Source of the DNA: Bacilli bacterium | Lineage (GTDB): Bacteria > Bacillota_I > Bacilli_A > RF39 > UBA660 | NCBI GenBank assembly: GCA_900771805.1 | Contig: CAAGPL010000002.1 | Coordinates: 1 to 32,000, forward strand | Length of the DNA: 32,000 nt | Reading direction: 5' to 3' | In this document: one piece after another, positions 1,753-20,965 of the stretch | Position numbering within the stretch: position 1 is the first letter of the stretch | Layout: each line of letters opens with the position of its first letter | The notes under the pieces: model-generated | Told to the model about the DNA's origin: nothing | Databases searched by the model: none | The model's input: the letters and a program-made list of their open reading frames with translations, nothing else | Translations under genes and position numbers: made by a program

Positions 1753-2235
1753 ATGCAAGTAATAGAATATGAAGATAAATATCTAGAAGATGTTAAAGAC
1801 TTATTAGTTGAACTTGAAGAGTATATTGTATCAATAGATAAAGATCATTTGGATCAAGTTCATCCTGAATATAGGGAAAAAATGGCATTTTTAGATTTAG
1901 AAGAAGTTAATAAGAACAACGGTAAATGTTATTTGGCAGTAGAAAATAATAAAGTAATTGGCTTAATCATGGGTTGCATATTCCCATATGATGAATATGA
2001 TTATCTAGACTATAAATGTCCAAAAAGAGGAGAAATTACAGAATTAATCGTTACAAATAAAATTAGAAGTAAAGGCATAGGTCAAGAACTAATAAATAAA
2101 ATGGAAGAATACTTTAAATCCGTTGGATGTGAATATGTAATAGTTGATGTATTCGCCTACAATGATATTGGTAAGAATTTTTATAATAAAAAAGATTATC
2201 ATGCAAGAATGGAAACAATGATAAAGAAAATATAG
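1753..2235 (+). CDS. GNAT family N-acetyltransferase (160 aa)
   Basis: ITELIVTNKIRSKGIGQELINKMEEYFKSVGCEYVIVDVFAYNDIGKNFYNKKDY is a classical acetyl-CoA binding motif A/B. GAGGTG RBS precedes the ATG. Confidence 0.8.
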   Translation: MQVIEYEDKYLEDVKDLLVELEEYIVSIDKDHLDQVHPEYREKMAFLDLEEVNKNNGKCYLAVENNKVIGLIMGCIFPYDEYDYLDYKCPKRGEITELIVTNKIRSKGIGQELINKMEEYFKSVGCEYVIVDVFAYNDIGKNFYNKKDYHARMETMIKKI

Positions 2236-2264
2236 TGAGGGAAGTAAACAATATGAAACATTAA

Positions 2265-2384
2265 ATGAAATTAAACGATGGACCATTTGAACGAATAAAA
2301 AATGGAACAAAGACCATAAAATTAAGATTAAATGCTGAAAAAAGACAATTGTTAAAAATTAATATTAATTACTATCTGATGTAA
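2265..2384 (+). pseudogene. Truncated ASCH-domain-like ORF (39 codons)
   Basis: MKLNDGPFERIKNGTKTIKLRLNAEKRQLLKIN... resembles the N-terminus of ASCH-domain proteins (xxPFExIKSGxKTIExRLxDEKR) but stops after 39 aa. This comes from memory of the family, not from a search. Confidence 0.35.
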
Positions 2385-2389
2385 TAAGA

Positions 2390-2415
2390 GGCTAAGATTT
2401 ATTCTTAGTCTTTTT
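2390..2415 (+). terminator. Rho-independent terminator candidate
   Basis: The 8-bp stem ggctaaga/tcttagtc (one G-U pair) has a 5-nt loop and is followed by ttttt. Confidence 0.5.
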
Positions 2416-2448
2416 ATAAATTATGATATAATGAATGTAGGTGGTTTT

Positions 2449-3051
2449 ATGTCTAAAGTATCTAATGTTATAACAATGCTAGAATTGTTACAAAACGGAA
2501 AAAAATATAGTATTAATGAACTTTCTAATGAGCTTGAAGTATCAGAAAGAATGATTAGAGTTTATAAAGAAGATTTAGAAAAAGCAGGGATTTATGTAGA
2601 TACAATTATGGGACCATATGGAGGATATGTATTAAATCAGCAGATTCGTATGCCAATTAGAAAATTTAAATTAAAAGATGCAAAACTATTAGATAAATAT
2701 ATATTAAAAGAAAAAGATAAGAAGATAAAAGAAGAATTAATTATGCTTCAAGATAAAATAAAAGGTGTTTATATAGGGAGCAAACAAGAAGAAAAAGAGT
2801 TAAATTTAAAAGAAGAAACTGGAAAAAAATACAATTTGTTAACAAGAGACATAAAAGAAAAAAGAAAAGTTAAATTATTGTATTATTCTTATGGTAAGGG
2901 AGAAAATCAAAGAATTATATATCCTGCTGAAATGTTTTTGTTTCAAAATGGTTGGTACTGTGCAGCATTTTGTGAAATGAGACAAGATATTAGACATTTT
3001 GAATTGAAAAGAATAATAAATTGTGAATTATTAGATGAAAAATATGAGTAG
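2449..3051 (+). CDS. HTH plus WYL-domain transcriptional regulator (200 aa from ATG 2449)
   Basis: N-terminal winged-HTH segment (YSINELSNELEVSERMIRVYKEDLEKAGIYV). C-terminal WYL signature (FQNGWYCAAFCEMRQDIRHFELKRI). AGGTGG RBS lies before ATG 2449. The track start at 2431 overlaps a TGaTATAAT extended -10. Confidence 0.8.
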   Translation: MSKVSNVITMLELLQNGKKYSINELSNELEVSERMIRVYKEDLEKAGIYVDTIMGPYGGYVLNQQIRMPIRKFKLKDAKLLDKYILKEKDKKIKEELIMLQDKIKGVYIGSKQEEKELNLKEETGKKYNLLTRDIKEKRKVKLLYYSYGKGENQRIIYPAEMFLFQNGWYCAAFCEMRQDIRHFELKRIINCELLDEKYE

Positions 3052-4583: not shown

Positions 4584-5697
4584 ATGGAAATTACAAATAA
4601 AGATATAGAAATATTAAATAATAAATTTAATCAAATATGGAGGTCTCTTTGAGGTAGAAGAAAAACAAAAAGAGATAAAAAAACTAAATGAAAAATTATC
4701 AGAACCAAATATTTGGGATGATAGTAAGAATGCCGAGAAACTAACTAAAAAAATGAGTGAATTAAATGAGATTATTAATCCTATTATTAAGTTAAAAGAA
4801 AATTTAGATACTTTAAATCAGTTTAAAGAATTTGATGAAAAGTCCTTAGATTCTGCTTTAAAAAAAGAATTTGAAAAATTATATGAAAATTCTAATATAG
4901 AGTTAGAAAAGCAAGAGACACTTACATATTTGTCCGGAAAATTTGATAATAATGCTGCTATTTTTGAGATACACGCCGGGGCAGGTGGTACAGAAAGCTG
5001 TGATTGGGCAATGATGCTTTCTAGAATGTATACAAAATATTTTGATAAAAAAAATTATTCATATGAAGTAATAGATGAGCAAGAAGGCGAAGAGGCTGGA
5101 ATAAAAAGTATTGTGTATATTGTAAAAGGAGCATATGCTTATGGATATTTAAAAAATGAAAAAGGGGTTCATAGGTTAGTTAGATTATCTCCGTTTGACT
5201 CAAATAACAGGCGTCATACTTCTTTTGCAGCAGTAGATGTTATACCAGAATTTGATGATGATATAGATATAGAAATAAAAGATAGTGATATTAGAGTTGA
5301 TGTATATAGAAGTAGTGGAGCTGGAGGACAAGGTGTAAACACAACAGATTCCGCTGTTAGAATAACTCATATTAAAACAGGAATAGTAGTTACTTGTCAA
5401 AATGAACGAAGTCAGATAAAAAATAAAGAAACAGCACTTAAAGTTTTAAAAAGTAAGTTATATCAAAAAGAATTAAAAACGAGAAAAGAAAAAATTGATT
5501 CTATGAAAAGTGATCATAACGAAATAGAATTTGGCTCACAAATAAGAAGTTATGTACTTCATCCTTATTCAATGATAAAAGATCATAGAACAGGGTATGA
5601 AACATCTAATGTTAATAAAGTTTTAGATGGTAATTTAGATGGTTTTATAGAAAGTAACTTAAAAGGAGAGAAAAATGAGATTAATAAAAAAATTTAG
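4584..5697 (+). CDS. prfB: Peptide chain release factor 2, requiring a programmed +1 frameshift at 4647-4652
   Basis: ORF0 (ATG 4584, MEITNKDIEILNNKFNQIWRSL) ends at TGA 4650-4652. The +1 frame is open from 4651 and joins the track ORF 4753-5697. SPF (RLSPFDS) and GGQ (SGAGGQGVN) motifs are present. Confidence 0.93.
4640..4653 (+). promoter_or_regulatory. RF2 autoregulatory frameshift site (SD-like GGAGG, then CTT TGA G)
   Basis: The sequence tGGAGGtctCTTTGAg matches the canonical arrangement: internal Shine-Dalgarno, 3-nt spacer, then the slippery CUU-UGA. Confidence 0.9.
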
Positions 5698-11987: not shown

Positions 11988-12017
11988 AAAGTAGAGATTT
12001 TACTTATCTCTACTTTT
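11987..12017. terminator. Bidirectional hairpin terminator between convergent uvrB and the XRE gene
   Basis: aaaagtagagat-tttactt-atctctactttt, with A and T tracts on either side. The right arm encodes the last residues of the minus-strand ORF. Confidence 0.7.
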
Positions 12018-12320
12018 AATATTTTTACAATACCAAATAACATCTTTTTTCTGATTATCACTAAGTTTATCAAATTCATATATTAATTCATCATTACAAG
12101 TAGTATCTTTTAATCTTACTGGAGTACTTATGTTTGTTCTATCTAACAAATAATCAACAGAAGTATCTAAAAAGTCTGCAAGCTTAATTAATGTATCAGC
12201 ACTAGGAAGAGCTTTTCCGCTTTCATAGGCACTTATTGTTTCTTGTGATACCTCGGCAGCTATTGATAGTCTTATTTGAGTTATATTCTTTTTTTGTCTT
12301 AATTCTTTTAAATTCTTCAT
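12000..12320 (-). CDS. XRE-family helix-turn-helix transcriptional regulator (106 aa)
   Basis: LRQKKNITQIRLSIAAEVSQETISAYESGKALPSADTLIKLADFLDTSVDYLL is a canonical HTH_3/Cro-C1 motif. Confidence 0.88.
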   Translation of the reverse strand: MKNLKELRQKKNITQIRLSIAAEVSQETISAYESGKALPSADTLIKLADFLDTSVDYLLDRTNISTPVRLKDTTCNDELIYEFDKLSDNQKKDVIWYCKNIKSRDK

Positions 12321-12477
12321 AATACTACTTCTTTCTATATTTCTAAAATAATTTTATAAAAAGTATTTGTATTTTATAGATATATGATGTATAATATATA
12401 CATATACAGATTATATTTATTATATGCAGTATCTTAATAATTATTCTGTAAATATGTAGAAAGGAGTAAGTAGTGCT

Positions 12478-13077
12478 ATGAAAGAAGAGAAAAAAACAGG
12501 ATTTTCAGTAGCGGCAATGGTATTAGGAATAATTGGAATTTGCTTATCATTTATACCCATAGTTAATAATGTTTCATTTATATTAGGTGTTTTATCTGTT
12601 ATTTTTGCGATAATTTCATTAGTTAAAAAGTCAGGTAAAGCAAAGGCAATTGTAGGATTAATATTAGGTATATTATCTGTTGTAATAACGCTATCACTTC
12701 AAAATAGCTGGTCAAAGTCGCTAGATGATGTTGGTAAAGATTTGGATAATATGACGGGTGATAATACAGAAGAAATATTAAAAAAAGATGTTGACGTTAA
12801 TATTGGAAAATTAAATGTTACAACCGATGAATATGGTTATTCAGATTCTGAACTTGTAGTTGCAGTAACAAATAAATCTAAAGAGAAAAAATCATTCACT
12901 ATACATATAGAAGCAGTGGATAATACTGGAAAAAGAATAGATGATGATTATGTTTATGCAAATGACTTGAATTCTGGTCAAACGCAAGACTTTAAAACAT
13001 TTACTTTAATTTCGTCGGAAAAATTAGAACAAATGAAATCAGCTGAATTTAAAATTATTGATGTTTCAATGAATTAG
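12478..13077 (+). CDS. Membrane protein with N-terminal TM helices and an extracytoplasmic beta-rich domain (DUF4190/DUF4352-like)
   Basis: Two or three hydrophobic helices (GIIGICLSFIP..., GLILGILSVVITL), then a soluble domain. GGAG RBS is present. It is divergent from the XRE gene. Confidence 0.65.
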   Translation: MKEEKKTGFSVAAMVLGIIGICLSFIPIVNNVSFILGVLSVIFAIISLVKKSGKAKAIVGLILGILSVVITLSLQNSWSKSLDDVGKDLDNMTGDNTEEILKKDVDVNIGKLNVTTDEYGYSDSELVVAVTNKSKEKKSFTIHIEAVDNTGKRIDDDYVYANDLNSGQTQDFKTFTLISSEKLEQMKSAEFKIIDVSMN

Positions 13078-16074: not shown

Positions 16075-16151
16075 ATGATTTATTTAAAACTTTTAGATTA
16101 ACTTTTCTTTTTATAAGAATGATAAAATATTAACTAAAGGAGCTGTTATTT

Positions 16152-16568
16152 ATGATATTGCCTGCAAATGTATCTTGGCCTAAAACAAAGAAGTGTGTTG
16201 AAGAAATAATAACGAAGTATGTTTACTATGTATTATCAGTAGATGATAGCTCATCTGTCAATATTAAAGAAGATTATTTTTTGAATAATTTAGAATATAA
16301 AGAGCCAGATAATATATTTTTTAAAAAAGATTTAGGCGAATTAAAGAAAAGAGTAGAATTTATTAATTATTTTAGAACAGCGTTCAACAGACTTACGACG
16401 GATGAAAGAAAAATTATATATTGGACATATATTGATAAGGAAAATAGATTTGATGATAGTTATATTGCTAATAATTTAGGTTTTTCGCTTGGCTACTATT
16501 ATATAAAAAAGAAAGAAACAATAATAAGATTTTCCTATTGCCTTGGAGTTGAAAAAATAGAAAAATAA
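16152..16568 (+). CDS. ArpU-like / sigma-70 region-4-like small transcriptional regulator (138 aa)
   Basis: Size and C-terminal segment (LTTDERKIIYWTYIDKENRFDDSYIANNLGFSLGYYYIKKKETIIRFSYCLGV) resemble phage-type ArpU/RinA late-gene activators. Recognised from memory only. Confidence 0.5.
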   Translation: MILPANVSWPKTKKCVEEIITKYVYYVLSVDDSSSVNIKEDYFLNNLEYKEPDNIFFKKDLGELKKRVEFINYFRTAFNRLTTDERKIIYWTYIDKENRFDDSYIANNLGFSLGYYYIKKKETIIRFSYCLGVEKIEK

Positions 16569-16600
16569 AAAAACAACAAAGTCCAACAAAATATATAAAA

Positions 16601-16630
16601 ATAATAATTATAATAATTATAATAATTATT
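16601..16630. repeat. 9-bp microsatellite (ATAATAATT)x3 plus a partial copy, just upstream of the RiPP-like operon
   Basis: Read directly. It generates several overlapping TATAAT hexamers 20-45 bp upstream of ATG 16647. Confidence 0.75.
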
Positions 16631-16646
16631 GTTATAGGAGGATAAT

Positions 16647-17111
16647 ATGGAATTTAATATAAGAAAGTGTAATTATGATGATGCAATAGCTGCAAATAAC
16701 CTTTTAACTAAATTAATAGCTGATGAAAAACAGTATGATGATAATATTAATGAAAATTGTGTTGTAAGATCATTATATGAAAAATTTTATAATAATGATG
16801 ATATATGTTTATATGTAGCTAAATATAATAATATAGTTGTGGGTTATATATATGGATATTTGCAAAATAATGGTGATTGTAAAAATAATACAGTCTGTAC
16901 ATTAGACGCTTTATACATATTAGAGGAATATAGAAATAATGGTGTAGCTACTGAGTTAGTTAATTCATTTATTAAATGGGCAAAAAATAAAGATGTACAT
17001 TACATAGAATTAAAAGTATGTAATTTAAATGAAGAAGCAATAAAGCTTTATAAGAAATTCGAATTTTTTGAAACTAAAATGATAATGACTAAAAATATGG
17101 AGGAATTATAA
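16647..17111 (+). CDS. GNAT family N-acetyltransferase (154 aa)
   Basis: LYILEEYRNNGVATELVNSFIKWAKNKDVHYIELKVCNLNEEAIKLYKKFEF is GNAT motif A/B. GGAGG RBS is present. Its stop overlaps the next start (TAATG). Confidence 0.85.
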   Translation: MEFNIRKCNYDDAIAANNLLTKLIADEKQYDDNINENCVVRSLYEKFYNNDDICLYVAKYNNIVVGYIYGYLQNNGDCKNNTVCTLDALYILEEYRNNGVATELVNSFIKWAKNKDVHYIELKVCNLNEEAIKLYKKFEFFETKMIMTKNMEEL

Positions 17112-18451
17112 TGGTTTTATCAAAGTTTTTTCATTCTAAACAAATAGAAGATGATTTATATGCAGTATATAATTCACTTGTTATGGATGTAATATATTTA
17201 AATCAAAAACAACTAGACAACATAAAAAAATATGAAGTTAATAAAGAAGATATGAAACTTTTAAAAGATGCAGGTATATATGTTGATAGTCTAAGCAAAG
17301 ATAAAGACGCCTTAGATATAGTTAAAAAAAGGTATGATAGAGTTTGCGGAAAAGTAAATATAATGTATTTTATAATGAGTACATCTTGTAATTTAGGATG
17401 TAAGTATTGTTTTATAGAAAATTGTCAGTTTAATAACAAAAAAGAGACTAATATGAGTGAAAAAACAGCACTAGAAGCTTTAAGTAAATACGATGATTAT
17501 TTAAAAACAAATGATATTAGAGGCTCAATTATTTTTTATGGTGGAGAACCTTTAGTAAATTGGAAAGTTATTCAAAAGGTATTATTAGCTGCTAAAGAAA
17601 TGAAAAGCCCAATAGACTTTTCTATGGTTACTAATGCAACTTTATTAGATGAAGAAAAAATTAAGTTTCTGGCTTGTAATAATGTTGAAATTGGAATATC
17701 TATAGATGGACCTAAAGCTTTGAATGATATAAATAGAGTTTATAGAAATAGTGAAAAAAGTGTATATGATGAAGTTATAAAAAAATTCCCTATGCTTAAA
17801 GCAGAACAAACAAAATTTGGGCTTTCTATTACGGTTTCTAATGATTTTTTAGACAATCAAGATGCGGTATTAGACTGGCTTTTAAAATTAAATGTAAAAA
17901 GTATATTTTATAATTTATATCATTATACTAGCTATGATGATAATTGGGAAGATTATTACAAAAGGGCTTGTGCTTTTCTTATAAAATCTTATGAAAAACT
18001 ATCAAAAAAGAATATATATGATGGAAGATTAATTAGAAAAATGGAAAGTTTTTATGATAATGAATTTAAGTTTTCAGACTGTGGTGCGATAGGTGCAAAT
18101 CAACTTGCTATAAAACCAAATGGTGATGTATGTATATGCCACGGTTATTTAAAAACAGATAAGTATGTTATTGGAAATATAAATAATGTTTCAATAGAAA
18201 CAATAATGCGATCTGATGAAATTAAATTTTGGAAACATAGAAACACTTTAAATAATAAAGAATGTTTAAAGTGTGAAGCTCTTTATGTATGTGGCGGTGG
18301 TTGTGCTATACAAGCAGAAGCTTTGTTTGGTGATAGAAGCAAAATAGATAGACCCTTTTGTATACATAGTAAGAGCGCTCTTAATTGGTTATTAAAGGAA
18401 AGTTATCGAATAAATACAAAAAAGGATGTAGTAGAGGAGGTGAAAAAATGA
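17111..18451 (+). CDS. Radical SAM enzyme with a C-terminal SPASM domain (peptide maturase-like, 446 aa)
   Basis: CX3CX2C (STSCNLGCKYCF), a GGEPL motif, and a SPASM pattern: CGAIGANQLAIKPNGDVCIC (C-x13-G-x4-C), then CLKCEALYVCGGGC (CX2CX5CX3C), then a distal C (FCIHS). An ~85-aa N-terminal extension precedes the cluster motif (possibly a peptide-recognition element). Confidence 0.9.
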   Translation: MVLSKFFHSKQIEDDLYAVYNSLVMDVIYLNQKQLDNIKKYEVNKEDMKLLKDAGIYVDSLSKDKDALDIVKKRYDRVCGKVNIMYFIMSTSCNLGCKYCFIENCQFNNKKETNMSEKTALEALSKYDDYLKTNDIRGSIIFYGGEPLVNWKVIQKVLLAAKEMKSPIDFSMVTNATLLDEEKIKFLACNNVEIGISIDGPKALNDINRVYRNSEKSVYDEVIKKFPMLKAEQTKFGLSITVSNDFLDNQDAVLDWLLKLNVKSIFYNLYHYTSYDDNWEDYYKRACAFLIKSYEKLSKKNIYDGRLIRKMESFYDNEFKFSDCGAIGANQLAIKPNGDVCICHGYLKTDKYVIGNINNVSIETIMRSDEIKFWKHRNTLNNKECLKCEALYVCGGGCAIQAEALFGDRSKIDRPFCIHSKSALNWLLKESYRINTKKDVVEEVKK

Positions 18452-18627
18452 AAGTGTTAGATAAAGAAAGAGTAAAAAGCGTAGTAGGAGCAACAGCAGA
18501 AAATTATGCTTCAGTATGCAATAGCTGCGCATGTGGTGGTGGAACAGGTTCATGTAATACAACATGTAAGGGTTGCAAGGACAAAAGTGAAAACATTAAG
18601 GAAGTAAGAGAAGTATATAAAAAATAA
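18448..18627 (+). CDS. Cys-rich 59-aa putative RiPP precursor peptide
   Basis: MKVLDKERVKSVVGATAENYASVCNSCACGGGTGSCNTTCKGCKDKSENIKEVREVYKK. GGAGGTG RBS is present, and the ATG overlaps the maturase stop (ATGA). Coordinates are taken from residue 22 of the track ORF 18385-18627. Confidence 0.75.
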   Translation: MKVLDKERVKSVVGATAENYASVCNSCACGGGTGSCNTTCKGCKDKSENIKEVREVYKK

Positions 18628-18667
18628 GGACTCATGTTCTTATTTTTATGTTATTAGGGGGATTATT

Positions 18668-19609
18668 ATGATAATAGATGCTCATAGTCATATCGGTAGA
18701 GATTTTTATTTTGGAGAATCTAAAATAGAAGATTATGATAAATTTTGTGTTAAAAATAATATAGATGTAGGCTTTTTAATGCCAATGCCATGGCCAGTAT
18801 ATAGCAAAAATGGTACTGATATTTGTTCTTTATTGTGGGAACATGAAAATTATGAAAAAATTAATTATTATAAATTTTATCTTAAAAACAATGAAAAAGA
18901 TACTATAATTTATAATCCGTATGAGGAAATTAATAAGTTTTATTATGAAAAGTTACAAAATTATAATTCTAAAACTAAAGTGAAATTTATACCATTAGTT
19001 CATGGAAAATTAGATAATCCATATTATTTAGAAAATATGATAAGAAAAACAAAGCCAGTAGCTATAAAATTTCATGGCTTTAGTGGTGGTTTCTTTACAG
19101 ATGATATAAAAGAAGATATTATAGATATAATTAAATTTTATGATATACCTATTATTATTCATACATCAGTATATAAATATAATGATGGATATGGAGTAGA
19201 TACAAAATATTTCAGAAATAAATGTAGTCCTAAAAATTGGTATGAATTTTTAAAATCAAATAATTTAAAGGGTGTTTTAAATCACGGAGCGTGTTTAGAT
19301 GAAGAAATTATAAAAAAAGTTAATTCTAATAAAAATATAATGATAGGAATAGGTCCTGACTATGATATAGCAAGTGATCCATATAAAGTTTTAACTGAGA
19401 AAAAATTGTACTTAGATGTTGGATATTTGAATTTGCTAAAGAATATGATAGATCCAGAAAAACTTCTTTTTGATGTTGATTATAATTGGAATTTTGGTAA
19501 TAATAATGAACTGGACAATGATTCTATAAAAAGAATTAGAAAAACGTGGAATTATCTAGATAGTGAAAATATACTTGGTAAAAATGCTAAGGCTTTTTAT
19601 AGACTTTGA
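18668..19609 (+). CDS. Amidohydrolase-fold (TIM-barrel metal-dependent hydrolase, Amidohydro_2-like) protein (313 aa)
   Basis: N-terminal MIIDAHSHIG (HxH metal motif), with later candidate ligands in IKFHGF, IIIHTS, LNHGAC and LFDVDY. GGGGGA RBS is present. It starts 40 bp after the peptide gene. Confidence 0.7.
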   Translation: MIIDAHSHIGRDFYFGESKIEDYDKFCVKNNIDVGFLMPMPWPVYSKNGTDICSLLWEHENYEKINYYKFYLKNNEKDTIIYNPYEEINKFYYEKLQNYNSKTKVKFIPLVHGKLDNPYYLENMIRKTKPVAIKFHGFSGGFFTDDIKEDIIDIIKFYDIPIIIHTSVYKYNDGYGVDTKYFRNKCSPKNWYEFLKSNNLKGVLNHGACLDEEIIKKVNSNKNIMIGIGPDYDIASDPYKVLTEKKLYLDVGYLNLLKNMIDPEKLLFDVDYNWNFGNNNELDNDSIKRIRKTWNYLDSENILGKNAKAFYRL

Positions 19610-19689
19610 TATCTTAATTTTGAAGTGGCATATTTGTAATTTTTTTGTATAAAAAGTATTTCATGTGTTATAATTAAATAGGTGATAAC

Positions 19690-20154
19690 ATGAAGGTAAT
19701 AGTTGTTGATGATTCTAAAGCAAATAAAAAGAAGTATAAAAATAAAAGTGATAATGGAAACAACATAGAATATAGATTAAATTTATTTTTAGAATGGTTA
19801 ATTTATATGTTTGGATATGCTGTTGTTTTACTTATAACATCGAATTTATTTAGACCATTATATGTAGAAAACTTTTGGTATGGTTTTATTGCAGCAATAT
19901 TAATATATATATTAAATAAAACTATAAAGCCATTTTTAGTTACTATATCTCTTCCGATTATTGGAATGTCTCTTGGACTGTTTTATATTGTAATTAATGT
20001 ATTTATTTTACTTTTAGTTAGCTTAATATTAGGTAAACATTTTTACTTAACTGGTTTTTTCTCACCTTTTATAGTGGCATTGTTTATAAGTTTAATGAAT
20101 ATTTTAATGGAAGGTTTTATTATAAAACCTCTTATAGAAAGGTGCAAAAAATAA
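19690..20154 (+). CDS. DUF360 / phage-holin-4-like membrane protein (YvlD-like)
   Basis: Four TM helices in the typical pattern FWYGFIAAILIYILNKTIKPFLVTISLPIIGMSLGLFYIVINVFILLLVS. Confidence 0.7.
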   Translation: MKVIVVDDSKANKKKYKNKSDNGNNIEYRLNLFLEWLIYMFGYAVVLLITSNLFRPLYVENFWYGFIAAILIYILNKTIKPFLVTISLPIIGMSLGLFYIVINVFILLLVSLILGKHFYLTGFFSPFIVALFISLMNILMEGFIIKPLIERCKK

Positions 20155-20155
20155 T

Positions 20156-20965
20156 ATGAATAGTATATTTATTAGTATAGGAAAAATTTCAATAACTTGG
20201 TATTCTATTTTTATTTTATTGGGGGTTTTATTGGCAACTTTTATTATAAAAAAGGAAGCTAACAAAAATGATATACCTACTAGTTTTATTACAAATCTTG
20301 TATTTTGGTGTGTTTTTTATGGAATAATTGGAGCAAGGATTTATTATGTTTTGTTTAATTTGGATTATTATGCAATTAATCCAGTTGAAATAATAAAAAT
20401 TTGGAATGGTGGTCTTGCTATTCATGGTGGTTTGATAGCGGGATTAATAACATTTATTATTTATTGCAAAAAATATGAAGTTAATGTTTTGAAAATGCTA
20501 GACATTTCAGTTCCTGGACTTATATTGGCACAAGCAATTGGAAGATGGGGCAACTTTTTTAATAGTGAAGCTCACGGCGGAATTGTATCACGTATATTTT
20601 TAGAAAATTTACATATACCAAAATTTATAATAAAAGGAATGTATATTAATGGTAATTATTATCATCCGACATTTTTTTATGAATCATTATTCTGCTTTAT
20701 TGGATTCTTTGTATTAATTGGAATAAGAAGTCTTAAAAAAACAAAAGTAGGAACGACTACTTCAATATATTTGATATGGTATGGGATAGTAAGATTCTTT
20801 GTGGAATCATTAAGAACAGATAGTTTGATGTTATCTTCTATTAAAATTGCACAACTAGTATCAGTTTTAATGGTTATTTTGGGTATTATATTGCTTATTA
20901 TATCTAAAACTAAGTTCAAAGAATATTCTAAAGAGGTGGCCTGCGAAAATGAAATCAAATTCTAA
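20156..20965 (+). CDS. lgt: Prolipoprotein diacylglyceryl transferase
   Basis: HGGLIAG and GRWGNFFNSEAHG signature segments, with a polytopic membrane profile. Confidence 0.92.
   Translation: MNSIFISIGKISITWYSIFILLGVLLATFIIKKEANKNDIPTSFITNLVFWCVFYGIIGARIYYVLFNLDYYAINPVEIIKIWNGGLAIHGGLIAGLITFIIYCKKYEVNVLKMLDISVPGLILAQAIGRWGNFFNSEAHGGIVSRIFLENLHIPKFIIKGMYINGNYYHPTFFYESLFCFIGFFVLIGIRSLKKTKVGTTTSIYLIWYGIVRFFVESLRTDSLMLSSIKIAQLVSVLMVILGIILLIISKTKFKEYSKEVACENEIKF

What the first reader, a model, noticed from the sequence alone, without database searches (positions are those of the whole stretch)
16647..19609. Translationally coupled GNAT / radical SAM-SPASM / six-Cys peptide / amidohydrolase operon: candidate new ranthipeptide-like RiPP system
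Seen in sequence: there are four co-directional genes. The first two junctions overlap, with TAATG at 17109-17113 and ATGA at the maturase/peptide junction. Only 40 bp separates the peptide gene from the fourth gene. The 446-aa enzyme carries the radical SAM CX3CX2C motif (CNLGCKYC) and a complete SPASM cysteine pattern (C-x13-G-x4-C, then CLKCEALYVCGGGC, then a distal C). The next ORF is a 59-aa peptide with six Cys in a 20-residue window. Established knowledge: a SPASM radical SAM enzyme next to a small Cys-rich ORF is the hallmark of sactipeptide and ranthipeptide (including SCIFF) maturation. Inference: this locus differs from SCIFF in several ways. The gene order is reversed, with the maturase first. 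The peptide does not match the SCIFF core as I remember it (GGCGECQTSCQSACKTSC). Two extra enzymes, a GNAT and an Amidohydro_2-like HxH hydrolase, are locked into the operon. No leader protease, ABC exporter or immunity gene is present. That combination suggests an undescribed tailoring route (for example N-acetylation plus hydrolytic processing) and possibly an intracellular role.
Basis: partly seen in the sequence, partly recalled or inferred. Interest (0 to 1): 0.9.

Follow-up and report, generated by a model that had tools for sequence, protein, structure and literature searches.

The report
Radical-SAM cysteine-rich peptide cassette
An uncultured gut bacterium carries a four-gene cassette whose core is a radical-SAM enzyme and the small cysteine-rich peptide it most likely cross-links: an uncharacterised family of a known type of modified-peptide system, here with two lineage-specific helper enzymes.

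Summary

The conserved unit is a two-gene module: a radical SAM/SPASM enzyme with an N-terminal peptide-recognition (RRE-like) domain, plus an adjacent Cys-rich peptide. The pair is kept in all 15 loci examined, down to 40% enzyme identity. The enzyme is nearest to RiPP maturases but below every curated cut-off (FibroRumin 244/400 bits, PapB 172/340, SCIFF 120/425). It is not an anaerobic sulfatase maturase. The peptide matches no curated family. Its hallmarks are an invariant Tyr near the C-terminus and C-x-D/E at the last Cys (22 of 23).

The GNAT and the HxH protein, a divergent amidohydrolase-fold enzyme, occur only in one lineage of gut Bacilli. There the four genes diverge as one sharply bounded block. 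Other HxH relatives sit in other radical-SAM clusters. GNAT relatives at 41-50% identity sit in unrelated contexts.

Verdict: a real, uncharacterised ranthipeptide-like system. Thioether chemistry and the accessory roles are inferred, not shown. Interest is moderate, not 0.9.

The parts
16152..16568 (+). ArpU-like small transcription activator, a possible regulator of the cassette
   Evidence: TIGR01637 at E 3e-6, 27 bits, below the 43 cut-off. phrog_248 'transcriptional activator' at 6e-9. Present upstream in all 7 syntenic genomes and absent from distant loci. Lies mostly outside the recombined block. Its role was not tested.
16594..16636 (.). AT-rich palindrome / ATAATAATT repeats in the 78-bp spacer before the GNAT gene; a possible promoter or operator
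   Evidence: Inverted repeat of 21 nt, 90% complementary. Not followed up. The promoter scan is uninformative in this 25% GC DNA: 41 sites found against 38.6 expected.
16647..17111 (+). GNAT N-acetyltransferase (154 aa), a lineage-specific accessory
   Evidence: PF00583 at E 8e-19. No NCBIfam equivalog is reached. Its stop overlaps the rSAM start (TAATG). It lies inside the co-diverging block.
17111..18451 (+). Radical SAM/SPASM peptide maturase (446 aa)
   Evidence: PF04055 and PF13186. Best NCBIfam matches are FibroRumin maturase at 244 bits and PapB at 172, all below cut-off. The AF2 model has pLDDT 90.7. Best structures are CteB 5wgg and TigE 8vpo.
17111..17338 (+). N-terminal beta3-alpha3 domain (residues 1-76), RRE-like peptide-recognition element
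   Evidence: Secondary structure of the model: strands 7-13, 16-21, 28-30 and helices 32-39, 45-53, 61-76. CteB and TigE align over the full length, but sulfatase maturases only over about 380 columns.
17387..17410 (+). CX3CX2C radical SAM cluster motif (C93, C97, C100)
   Evidence: Invariant in alignment A2.
18080..18361 (+). SPASM domain with seven Cys for two auxiliary Fe-S clusters (C324, C343, C385, C388, C394, C398, C417)
   Evidence: PF13186 covers residues 324-389.
18448..18627 (+). 59-aa precursor peptide: variable leader (1-21), Cys-rich core (22-46), conserved tail with invariant Tyr57
   Evidence: ATGA overlap and a GGAGG ribosome-binding site. Alignment A3 of 23 homologues has C24 and Y57 invariant, with C29, C40, K41 and C43 at 90% or more. 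Mean conservation is 0.89 for the core and 0.56 for the leader. C-x-D/E follows the last Cys in 22 of 23. No Pfam or NCBIfam family matches.
18620..18647 (+). Conserved stem-loop with U-run overlapping the peptide stop codon; probably a partial terminator or mRNA stabiliser
   Evidence: Inverted repeat of 12 nt. Folds at -12.3 kcal/mol, z -2.9, and a hairpin is present in all 8 loci. 96.6% of cells are paired and 2 pairs carry compensatory changes; 22 of 500 shuffles do as well. Function is inferred.
18668..19609 (+). HxH protein: divergent metal-dependent amidohydrolase-superfamily TIM-barrel enzyme (313 aa), a lineage-specific accessory
   Evidence: No Pfam or NCBIfam hit. Only 63 homologue clusters. 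H6, H8, H165, H206, D231, D269 and D271 are invariant; K134 and H136 are kept in 34 of 35, the exception being a gap. The AF2 model has pLDDT 95.3. Foldseek finds Amidohydro_2-type structures 2f6k, ACMSD and 2ffi, and also dihydroorotase, at E 3e-8 to 1e-5 and TM about 0.6.
16450..19690 (.). Block that diverges as a unit (79-90% DNA identity) between this window and a near-identical relative (L007)
   Evidence: Mismatches per 50 bp are 0-1 in the flanks 16151-16450 and 19701-20200, against 1-20 (mostly 4-14) inside the block.

Best explanation
The core is a two-gene RiPP module. The 59-aa peptide is made with an N-terminal leader. The enzyme's RRE-like N-terminal domain docks the peptide. Its radical SAM cluster cleaves SAM and abstracts a hydrogen atom from a side-chain or backbone carbon of the core. 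With the two SPASM auxiliary clusters it joins Cys sulfur to that carbon, giving one or more thioether rings. This is ranthipeptide- or sactipeptide-type chemistry. The conserved C-x-Asp/Glu at the last Cys is the best acceptor candidate.

A hairpin after the peptide gene probably raises peptide mRNA relative to the downstream gene. In this one lineage of gut Bacilli two accessory enzymes were added and are inherited and exchanged with the pair. The GNAT probably acetylates an amine of the peptide. The binuclear-type amidohydrolase-fold enzyme probably hydrolyses an amide of it: leader or C-terminal follower removal, deacetylation or side-chain deamidation.

The module has no exporter, protease or immunity gene. 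It sits in a housekeeping region, and its core is more conserved than its leader. It therefore resembles SCIFF-like physiological peptides more than a bacteriocin.

Shown: gene anatomy, domains, motifs, conservation of the pair, lineage restriction and co-divergence of the accessories. Inferred: thioether chemistry, which residues react, what the GNAT and the hydrolase do, and the biological role.
For: Domains and motifs are. The enzyme is nearest to RiPP maturases: FibroRumin 244 bits, PapB 172, ahead of anSME 128. By profile it matches CteB at 8e-43, TigE at 1e-36 and anSME at 4e-32. By fold, CteB is best at 3e-21 over the full length, including the beta3-alpha3 N-domain.

The adjacent Cys-rich peptide is kept in 15 of 15 loci with 40-89% enzyme identity, in unrelated genomic surroundings, often overlapping or within a few bases of the enzyme gene. 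The peptide family shares C24, Y57, CK.C and C-x-D/E. PapB cross-links Cys-Xn-Asp/Glu with n = 0-6 (PMC9413430). SCIFF maturases make Cys-Thr thioethers, and SCIFF is widespread in Clostridia (PMC8326336).

For the accessories: translational coupling; a four-gene block with sharp divergence boundaries; and GNAT, enzyme and HxH homologue lists that share many identical longest-contig lengths, for enzymes down to about 59% identity (indirect evidence). HxH relatives at 30-39% identity lie in other radical-SAM clusters. Two of these have small Cys-containing ORFs next to them (L093, L095). There is precedent for an amidohydrolase as a RiPP peptidase: PurAH removes the bottromycin follower peptide (PMC10885120).
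Against: No chemistry can be tested here. The second-closest structure, TigE, makes cyclopropanes, not thioethers (PMC10878394), so homology alone does not fix the reaction. The enzyme is below the cut-off of every curated maturase family.

The accessories are absent from most of the wider family. GNAT homologues at 41-50% identity are in unrelated contexts. The single distant locus with a GNAT next to the enzyme (L008, 35% identity) could be chance.

Two HxH relatives (L094, L101) lie in clusters that look like small-molecule or nucleotide pathways: a MoaA-like rSAM, a PP-loop ATPase, LeuRS-like fragments and a guanylate-kinase fusion. The HxH substrate therefore need not be a peptide. The hairpin between the peptide and HxH genes could uncouple their expression.
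Confidence: 0.55

Rival explanations
1. The enzyme-peptide pair is a RiPP module, but the GNAT, the HxH enzyme or both do not act on the peptide. They could be neighbours fixed in one lineage. They could serve radical-SAM chemistry in general, for example disposal of the 5'-deoxyadenosine by-product. They could act on a small molecule.
For: Most family members lack both genes. The nearest GNAT relatives outside the clade are in unrelated contexts. HxH relatives L094 and L101 sit with a MoaA-like rSAM, a PP-loop enzyme and LeuRS-like fragments, and one is fused to guanylate kinase, with no small ORF called next to the HxH gene (small ORFs there were not searched for). The only feature common to all five HxH contexts seen is a radical SAM enzyme. 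A hairpin separates the peptide gene from HxH.
Against: The GNAT stop overlaps the enzyme start. All four genes share one recombination or divergence tract with sharp ends. They stay together across enzyme identities of 57-95%. Two remote HxH contexts do have small Cys-containing ORFs directly adjacent. The invariant Lys on strand 4 fits binuclear hydrolases rather than the mononuclear nucleoside deaminases.
Confidence: 0.3
2. The enzyme performs non-thioether chemistry on the peptide. Examples are a C-C or ether cross-link, or chemistry centred on the invariant C-terminal Tyr. The product could be a peptide-derived cofactor, by analogy with mycofactocin or PQQ, where an rSAM/SPASM enzyme modifies a Tyr-containing peptide and hydrolases then trim it.
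For: Tyr57 is one of only two invariant peptide residues, while the number of Cys varies from 4 to 14. The second-best structural relative, TigE, makes C-C bonds. There is no exporter, the core is strongly conserved and the setting is housekeeping. A hydrolase is present. The analogy to MftC/MftE and PqqE is my own knowledge, not tested here.
Against: The mycofactocin and PqqE models are not among the 25 best NCBIfam matches, and PqqE is only a weak fold match at 6e-8. The GYW motif that defines cyclopropyl synthases is absent: the window has GYL. The Cys-rich core and conserved C-x-D/E match ranthipeptide substrates. The nearest enzymes, CteB and PapB, are thioether synthases.
Confidence: 0.15
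3. This is not a RiPP system. The small ORF is a metal-binding or Fe-S mini-protein, or is not translated. The enzyme matures some other protein, as an anaerobic sulfatase maturase does.
For: CxxC...CxxC spacing (C24/C27 and C40/C43) could bind a metal. The sulfatase maturase model still scores 128 bits.
Against: The CxxC pairs are not kept in distant family members. No sulfatase gene is nearby. The enzyme has the N-terminal RRE-like domain that sulfatase maturases lack. The ORF has a strong ribosome-binding site, is translationally coupled and is conserved at protein level in 15 of 15 loci.
Confidence: 0.05

Closest known systems
SCIFF / ranthipeptide systems (CteA-CteB, Tte1186; PapA-PapB freyrasin)
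   Same: An rSAM/SPASM maturase with an RRE sits next to a short Cys-rich precursor. CteB is the best sequence and fold match among solved structures. The module is two genes without exporter or protease, and is chromosomally conserved within a lineage, as SCIFF is (PMC8326336). The C-x-D/E motif is compatible with PapB-type Cys-Asp/Glu links (PMC9413430).
   Different: The maturase is far below the SCIFF (120/425) and PapB (172/340) cut-offs. None of 23 peptides hits a SCIFF peptide model. The peptide gene is mostly downstream of the enzyme gene. The conserved C-terminal tail has an invariant Tyr. In this lineage there are also a GNAT and an amidohydrolase-fold enzyme. The host is uncultured low-GC gut Bacilli, not Clostridia.
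FibroRumin system radical SAM peptide maturase (NCBIfam TIGR04136)
   Same: It is the best-scoring curated model, aligned end to end (residues 4-435 on 2-457 of 458), so the N-terminal domain is shared.
   Different: The score is 244 bits against a cut-off of 400. More distant relatives (30-36% identity) have upstream peptides ending in LDW, EIEW or FEWEGL, a different peptide type. No literature on FibroRumin was found.
Other predicted Cys-rich peptide/rSAM-SPASM pairs (CcpM/CLI_3235, Clo7bot, CefB 'Cys-every-fifth', TIGR04463)
   Same: The architecture and the Cys-rich substrate logic are the same. One very Cys-rich family member (1 of 23) weakly hits the CLI_3235 precursor model at 3e-4.
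   Different: The maturase scores only 79-103 bits against cut-offs of 500-600. The peptide family is otherwise unmatched.
Bottromycin follower peptidase PurAH/BotAH (amidohydrolase-fold RiPP peptidase)
   Same: It is a metal-dependent amidohydrolase-superfamily enzyme encoded in a RiPP cluster whose precursor has a conserved C-terminal extension (PMC10885120).
   Different: It is not among the 50 best fold matches listed, and no sequence similarity was shown. The HxH enzyme is closest in fold to Amidohydro_2-type proteins at only TM about 0.6 and 10-15% identity. Its reaction is unknown.

Membership tests
Radical SAM/SPASM RiPP maturase (general class) | CX3CX2C radical SAM motif | tested here: met
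   C93, C97 and C100, invariant in 20 homologues. PF04055 at 1e-14.
Radical SAM/SPASM RiPP maturase (general class) | SPASM seven-Cys pattern for two auxiliary clusters | tested here: met
   C324-x13-G-x4-C343, C385-x2-C-x5-C-x3-C398 and C417. PF13186 at 2e-9.
Radical SAM/SPASM RiPP maturase (general class) | N-terminal RiPP recognition element (winged-helix beta3-alpha3) | tested here: met
   The AF2 model has three strands and three helices in residues 7-76 at pLDDT above 90. CteB and TigE align over the full length. Peptide binding was not tested.
Radical SAM/SPASM RiPP maturase (general class) | Conserved adjacent short precursor peptide | tested here: met
   15 of 15 loci.
SCIFF system (TIGR03974 maturase / SCIFF peptide) | Maturase reaches the equivalog cut-off | tested here: not met
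   120 bits against 425.
SCIFF system (TIGR03974 maturase / SCIFF peptide) | Peptide matches the SCIFF precursor family | tested here: not met
   None of 23 family peptides hits a SCIFF peptide model at E<=1.
Ranthipeptide (radical non-alpha thioether peptide) | S-C(beta/gamma) thioether between Cys and an acceptor residue | not testable with these tools
   This needs MS/MS and NMR. There is only circumstantial support: C-x-D/E in 22 of 23 peptides and CteB/PapB as the nearest enzymes.
PapB family maturase (NF047865) | Reaches the equivalog cut-off | tested here: not met
   172 bits against 340.
FibroRumin maturase (TIGR04136) | Reaches the equivalog cut-off | tested here: not met
   244 bits against 400.
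Anaerobic sulfatase-maturating enzyme (TIGR03942) | Reaches the cut-off, lacks an RRE, sulfatase substrate nearby | tested here: not met
   128 bits against 349. An N-terminal extra domain is present. No sulfatase gene is in the window.
Radical SAM cyclopropyl synthases (TigE/TvgB) | Gly-Tyr-Trp motif giving Tyr ligation of auxiliary cluster I (PMC10878394) | tested here: not met
   The window has GYL at 345-347. GYW occurs in only 1 of 20 homologues.
Amidohydrolase superfamily (fourth gene) | (beta/alpha)8 barrel with HxH on strand 1, His after strands 5 and 6, Asp on strand 8 | tested here: met
   H6, H8, H165, H206 and D269 are invariant; K134 on strand 4 is kept in 34 of 35, the exception being a gap. 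Foldseek gives probability 1.0 to amidohydrolase-fold structures.
   No hit even at E<=10. Only faint precomputed hits exist in three remote homologues.
GNAT (PF00583) | Pfam gathering score | tested here: met
   68.4 bits against 20.7. No specific equivalog is reached: RimI scores 44.6 against 86.4.

The most novel reading that the evidence does not exclude
The cassette makes a non-exported, thioether-cross-linked, N-acetylated and hydrolytically trimmed peptide. That peptide serves as a conserved physiological factor (signal, redox or metal cofactor) in an uncultured lineage of gut Bacilli. The HxH protein would found a previously unrecognised family of amidohydrolase-fold enzymes that recurrently partner radical SAM enzymes in peptide and other biosynthetic clusters.
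Probability: 0.2. Interest if true: 0.7.

Novelty: new variant of a known kind. Interest (0 to 1): 0.45.

Why it matters
The function of transporter-less, lineage-conserved radical-SAM peptides such as SCIFF is still unclear. This cassette is a second, independent example, found in uncultured gut Bacilli that are otherwise hard to study. It is small enough (3 kb, four genes) to reconstitute in E. coli.

It also ties a Pfam-invisible amidohydrolase-fold family to radical SAM clusters. That could add a new tailoring or processing enzyme class to RiPP biosynthesis.

If the accessories prove unrelated, what remains is a routine addition to the long list of predicted Cys-rich rSAM/SPASM peptide families.

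Tried and rejected
- A 'GNAT-like' gene next to the HxH homologue in L095 was suspected from its sequence. It gave no Pfam hit and no BLASTP similarity to the window GNAT. It was dropped as evidence.
- The GNAT as a general system component was rejected. Homologues at 41-50% identity lie in unrelated contexts.
- A double-glycine (GA) leader cleavage site at residues 14-15 was considered. The motif is not conserved in the homologues and no C39 transporter gene is near, so it was rejected.
- An anti-phage defence system was considered. PADLOC gives only generic rSAM-core hits to viperin models.
- A prophage origin was suggested by the ArpU-like gene and the 'Phage_holin_4_2' gene. The flanks are housekeeping genes (uvrBA, lgt, trxB, whiA, parAB) and are syntenic in 7 genomes, so this was rejected.
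- No riboswitch or known RNA was found: Rfam gave no hit in the window.
- The sigma-70 promoter scan was uninformative in this AT-rich DNA.
- The JGI metagenome scan returned mostly distant rSAM/SPASM proteins. About 50 of the 80 loci are at 24-29% identity and most of those match from about residue 89 on, like sulfatase maturases. Only three new family members came from it.
- Literature searches for FibroRumin, for RF39 plus ranthipeptide, and for ranthipeptide plus acetyltransferase found nothing relevant.
- RODEO, antiSMASH and sequence-similarity networks were not available.

Full report
**Observation.** All stated features are present.
- The four + strand ORFs are GNAT 16647-17111, rSAM/SPASM 17111-18451, peptide 18448-18627 and the HxH protein 18668-19609.
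- The TAATG (17109-17113) and ATGA (18448-18451) overlaps and the 40-bp spacer are as described. A GGAGG lies 7 nt before the peptide start.
- The enzyme has CNLGCKYC at residues 93-100. Its SPASM cysteines are C324/C343, C385/C388/C394/C398 and C417. In 20 homologues C394 is kept in at least 90% and the other six are invariant.
- The peptide has six Cys between residues 24 and 43.
- Pfam confirms the GNAT, Radical_SAM and SPASM domains.
- One correction: the fourth protein has no Pfam or NCBIfam match at all, even at E<=10.

**Setting.**
- The window is 25% GC. It is a housekeeping chromosomal region: prfB, ftsEX, an M23 peptidase gene, uvrB, uvrA, then the cassette, then a yvlD-like membrane protein gene, lgt, trxB, whiA, parAB, mscS, ychF and rpsF.
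- Seven species-level genomes of uncultured gut 'Bacilli/Mollicutes' MAGs (human Hadza, rabbit and others) share the synteny uvrA, ArpU-like, GNAT, rSAM, peptide, HxH, yvlD-like, lgt.
- TGA is a stop codon here. RF2 is present with its +1 frameshift site.

**The enzyme.**
- The best curated models are RiPP maturases, all below their cut-offs: FibroRumin 244/400, PapB 172/340, nif11-type 135, QhpD 131, anSME 128/349 and SCIFF 120/425.
- A family profile finds CteB (5wgg, the SCIFF thioether synthase) at 8e-43, TigE (8vpo) at 1e-36 and anSME at 4e-32.
- The AF2 model (pLDDT 90.7) has an N-terminal beta3-alpha3 domain, the RRE topology.
- Foldseek ranks CteB and TigE first over the full length. 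Sulfatase maturases align only over the core.
- The GYW motif that defines cyclopropyl synthases (PMC10878394) is absent.

**The peptide and its conservation.**
- Every locus examined with 40-89% enzyme identity has an adjacent small Cys-rich ORF: L001-L007, L008, L009/L010, L011/L012, L013, L014, L015, L096 and L097.
- The ORF is usually just downstream, sometimes overlapping the enzyme gene (L096), and once upstream (L008). The genomic surroundings are otherwise unrelated.
- An exhaustive phmmer search of 1.84 billion representatives found only 9 called relatives. No curated family matches.
- In the 23-sequence alignment, C24 and Y57 are invariant. C29, C40, K41 and C43 are kept in at least 90%.
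- The last Cys is followed by x-D/E in 22 of 23 peptides. A Tyr lies 3-8 residues from the C-terminus in all. The Cys number ranges from 4 to 14.
- Within the close clade the core (0.89) is more conserved than the leader (0.56). This is the opposite of typical bacteriocin precursors.

**Accessory genes.**
- GNAT, HxH and the ArpU-like gene accompany the pair only in the clade with at least about 57% enzyme identity. Loci at 40-54% identity have only enzyme plus peptide. L008 has an unrelated-looking GNAT (35% identity) after the enzyme gene.
- The homologue lists of the three proteins share many identical longest-contig lengths. This is consistent with one cassette clade, though the evidence is indirect.
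- GNAT homologues at 41-50% identity are in unrelated contexts.
- The window and L007 are nearly identical in uvrA, the ArpU-like gene and the yvlD-like gene (0-1 mismatch per 50 bp). Exactly across about 16450-19690 they differ by 1-20, mostly 4-14, mismatches per 50 bp.
- The four genes therefore diverge, or are exchanged, as one unit. This is the strongest evidence that they belong together.

**The HxH protein.**
- Only 63 homologue clusters exist.
- H6, H8, H165, H206, D231, D269 and D271 are invariant. K134 and H136 are kept in 34 of 35 sequences, the exception being a gap.
- The AF2 model (pLDDT 95.3) is a TIM barrel with K134 on strand 4. This is the HxH/Lys/His/His/Asp arrangement of binuclear amidohydrolases (inference).
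- Foldseek matches Amidohydro_2-type structures (2f6k, ACMSD, 2ffi), the amidohydrolase-fold oxygenases TruffO, SfbO and AibH, and dihydroorotase. E-values run from 3e-8 to 1e-5, but TM is only about 0.6 and identity 10-15%.
- Remote homologues (30-39% identity) were found in four other contexts, all containing radical SAM enzymes:
  - L093: a 37-aa ORF, three rSAM/SPASM genes and a B12-rSAM.
  - L095: a 46-aa 'CDICDICDICD' ORF, an AsnA-like ligase and a divergently oriented B12-rSAM.
  - L094 and L101: a MoaA-like rSAM, a PP-loop ATPase, LeuRS-like fragments and an SDH_alpha-like protein. In L094 the HxH protein is fused to guanylate kinase.
- The family is thus a recurrent partner of radical SAM enzymes, but not necessarily peptide-specific.
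- There is a precedent for an amidohydrolase acting as a RiPP peptidase: PurAH removes the bottromycin follower peptide (PMC10885120).

**Expression signal.** A stem-loop with a U-run overlaps the peptide stop codon (18620-18647). It is present in all eight close loci, with 96.6% of cells paired and two compensatory pairs. Such hairpins after precursor genes commonly act as partial terminators; this is my own knowledge and inference.

**Mechanism and rivals.**
- Most likely (0.55) this is a ranthipeptide- or sactipeptide-type system. The RRE-guided rSAM/SPASM enzyme makes thioether ring(s) in the Cys-rich core. C-x-D/E is the best acceptor candidate, because PapB accepts Cys-Xn-Asp/Glu with n = 0-6 (PMC9413430).
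- In this lineage the product is probably further acetylated by the GNAT and hydrolytically processed by HxH.
- Rivals:
  - The accessories act on something else (0.3, not exclusive of the core reading).
  - The chemistry is non-thioether or Tyr-centred, like cofactor biogenesis (0.15).
  - It is not a RiPP system at all (0.05).
- No exporter, protease or immunity gene occurs in any locus, and the core is strongly conserved. This points to a SCIFF-like physiological role rather than an antibiotic (inference; SCIFF background from PMC8326336).

**Comparison and novelty.**
- It works like SCIFF and ranthipeptide systems but fails the membership tests for SCIFF, PapB, FibroRumin, anSME and the cyclopropyl synthases.
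- It is an uncurated family of a well-known kind. Its new traits are the peptide signature, a lineage-specific GNAT and a Pfam-invisible amidohydrolase-fold partner.
- I rate it a new variant of a known kind with interest 0.45. It is a sound genome-mining lead but not a surprise to specialists, who already know many predicted Cys-rich rSAM/SPASM peptide families.

Noticed in passing
window 16450-19690 versus L007 (CAAHEC010000003): The four-gene cassette is 79-90% identical at DNA level, while both flanks are 96-99% identical, with sharp boundaries. This indicates allelic replacement of the whole cassette by recombination between close relatives, or unusually fast divergence.
   Followed up: yes
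window 18620-18647: A conserved AT-rich hairpin with a U-run overlaps the peptide stop codon. It is present with compensatory changes in all 8 close loci. The terminator scan missed it because it has fewer than 3 G-C pairs.
   Followed up: yes
window 4585-5697: prfB (RF2) shows the classical programmed +1 frameshift site: CTT TGA G at 4647-4653, preceded by GGAGG at 4639-4643. The listed ORF 4753-5697 is only the downstream-frame part. It also shows that TGA is a stop codon in this organism.
   Followed up: partly
window 12000-13077: A variable insert lies between uvrB and uvrA: a minus-strand HTH_3 regulator (with HTH-region-only matches to defence-associated HTH models such as capH and RmrA) and a 199-aa protein with no family. 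The stretch has no counterpart in L001 (0-5% aligned identity) but is present in L007.
   Followed up: partly
L094 3592-9051 and L101 1-5890: A conserved uncharacterised cluster contains an SDH_alpha-like protein, an HxH amidohydrolase-fold protein (fused to guanylate kinase in L094), a PP-loop ATPase (WbuX-like), a MoaA-like radical SAM enzyme, a 172-183-aa unknown protein and a LeuRS-like catalytic core (split into three ORFs in L101). It looks like a nucleotide or small-molecule pathway.
   Followed up: partly
L095 4804-6964: A 46-aa ORF ending in NICDICDICDICDKHKKQ is directly followed by an HxH homologue and an asparagine-synthetase-A-like (class II aaRS-like) gene. A B12-radical SAM gene is divergently oriented. 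This is possibly another undescribed peptide-modification cluster.
   Followed up: partly
L093 199-6218: An HxH homologue (39% identity) is followed by a 37-aa ORF ending in CDRCM, three rSAM/SPASM genes and a B12-binding rSAM gene. It looks like a multi-rSAM RiPP-like cluster.
   Followed up: partly
L016-L030 (for example L017 4675-4887, L021 650-874, L024 718-1068, L029 975-1338): More distant rSAM/SPASM relatives (27-36% identity) have upstream, often duplicated, Cys-rich peptides ending in LDW, EIEW, FEWEGL or HLEW. They are probably the FibroRumin-type systems that give the best NCBIfam hit.
   Followed up: no
window 16594-16636: A near-perfect AT-only palindrome with tandem ATAATAATT units lies in the spacer between the ArpU-like gene and the GNAT gene. 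It is a possible operator or promoter element.
   Followed up: no
L002 (CAYOAY010000028): The contig is labelled as a Muribaculaceae MAG. However, it carries the same low-GC Bacilli synteny, with uvrA 91% identical to the window. It is probably mis-binned.
   Followed up: no
window 1753-3051: There is a second GNAT gene (1753-2235) and a WYL/HTH regulator gene (2431-3051). GNATs are common here, which lowers the weight of GNAT adjacency as evidence.
   Followed up: no
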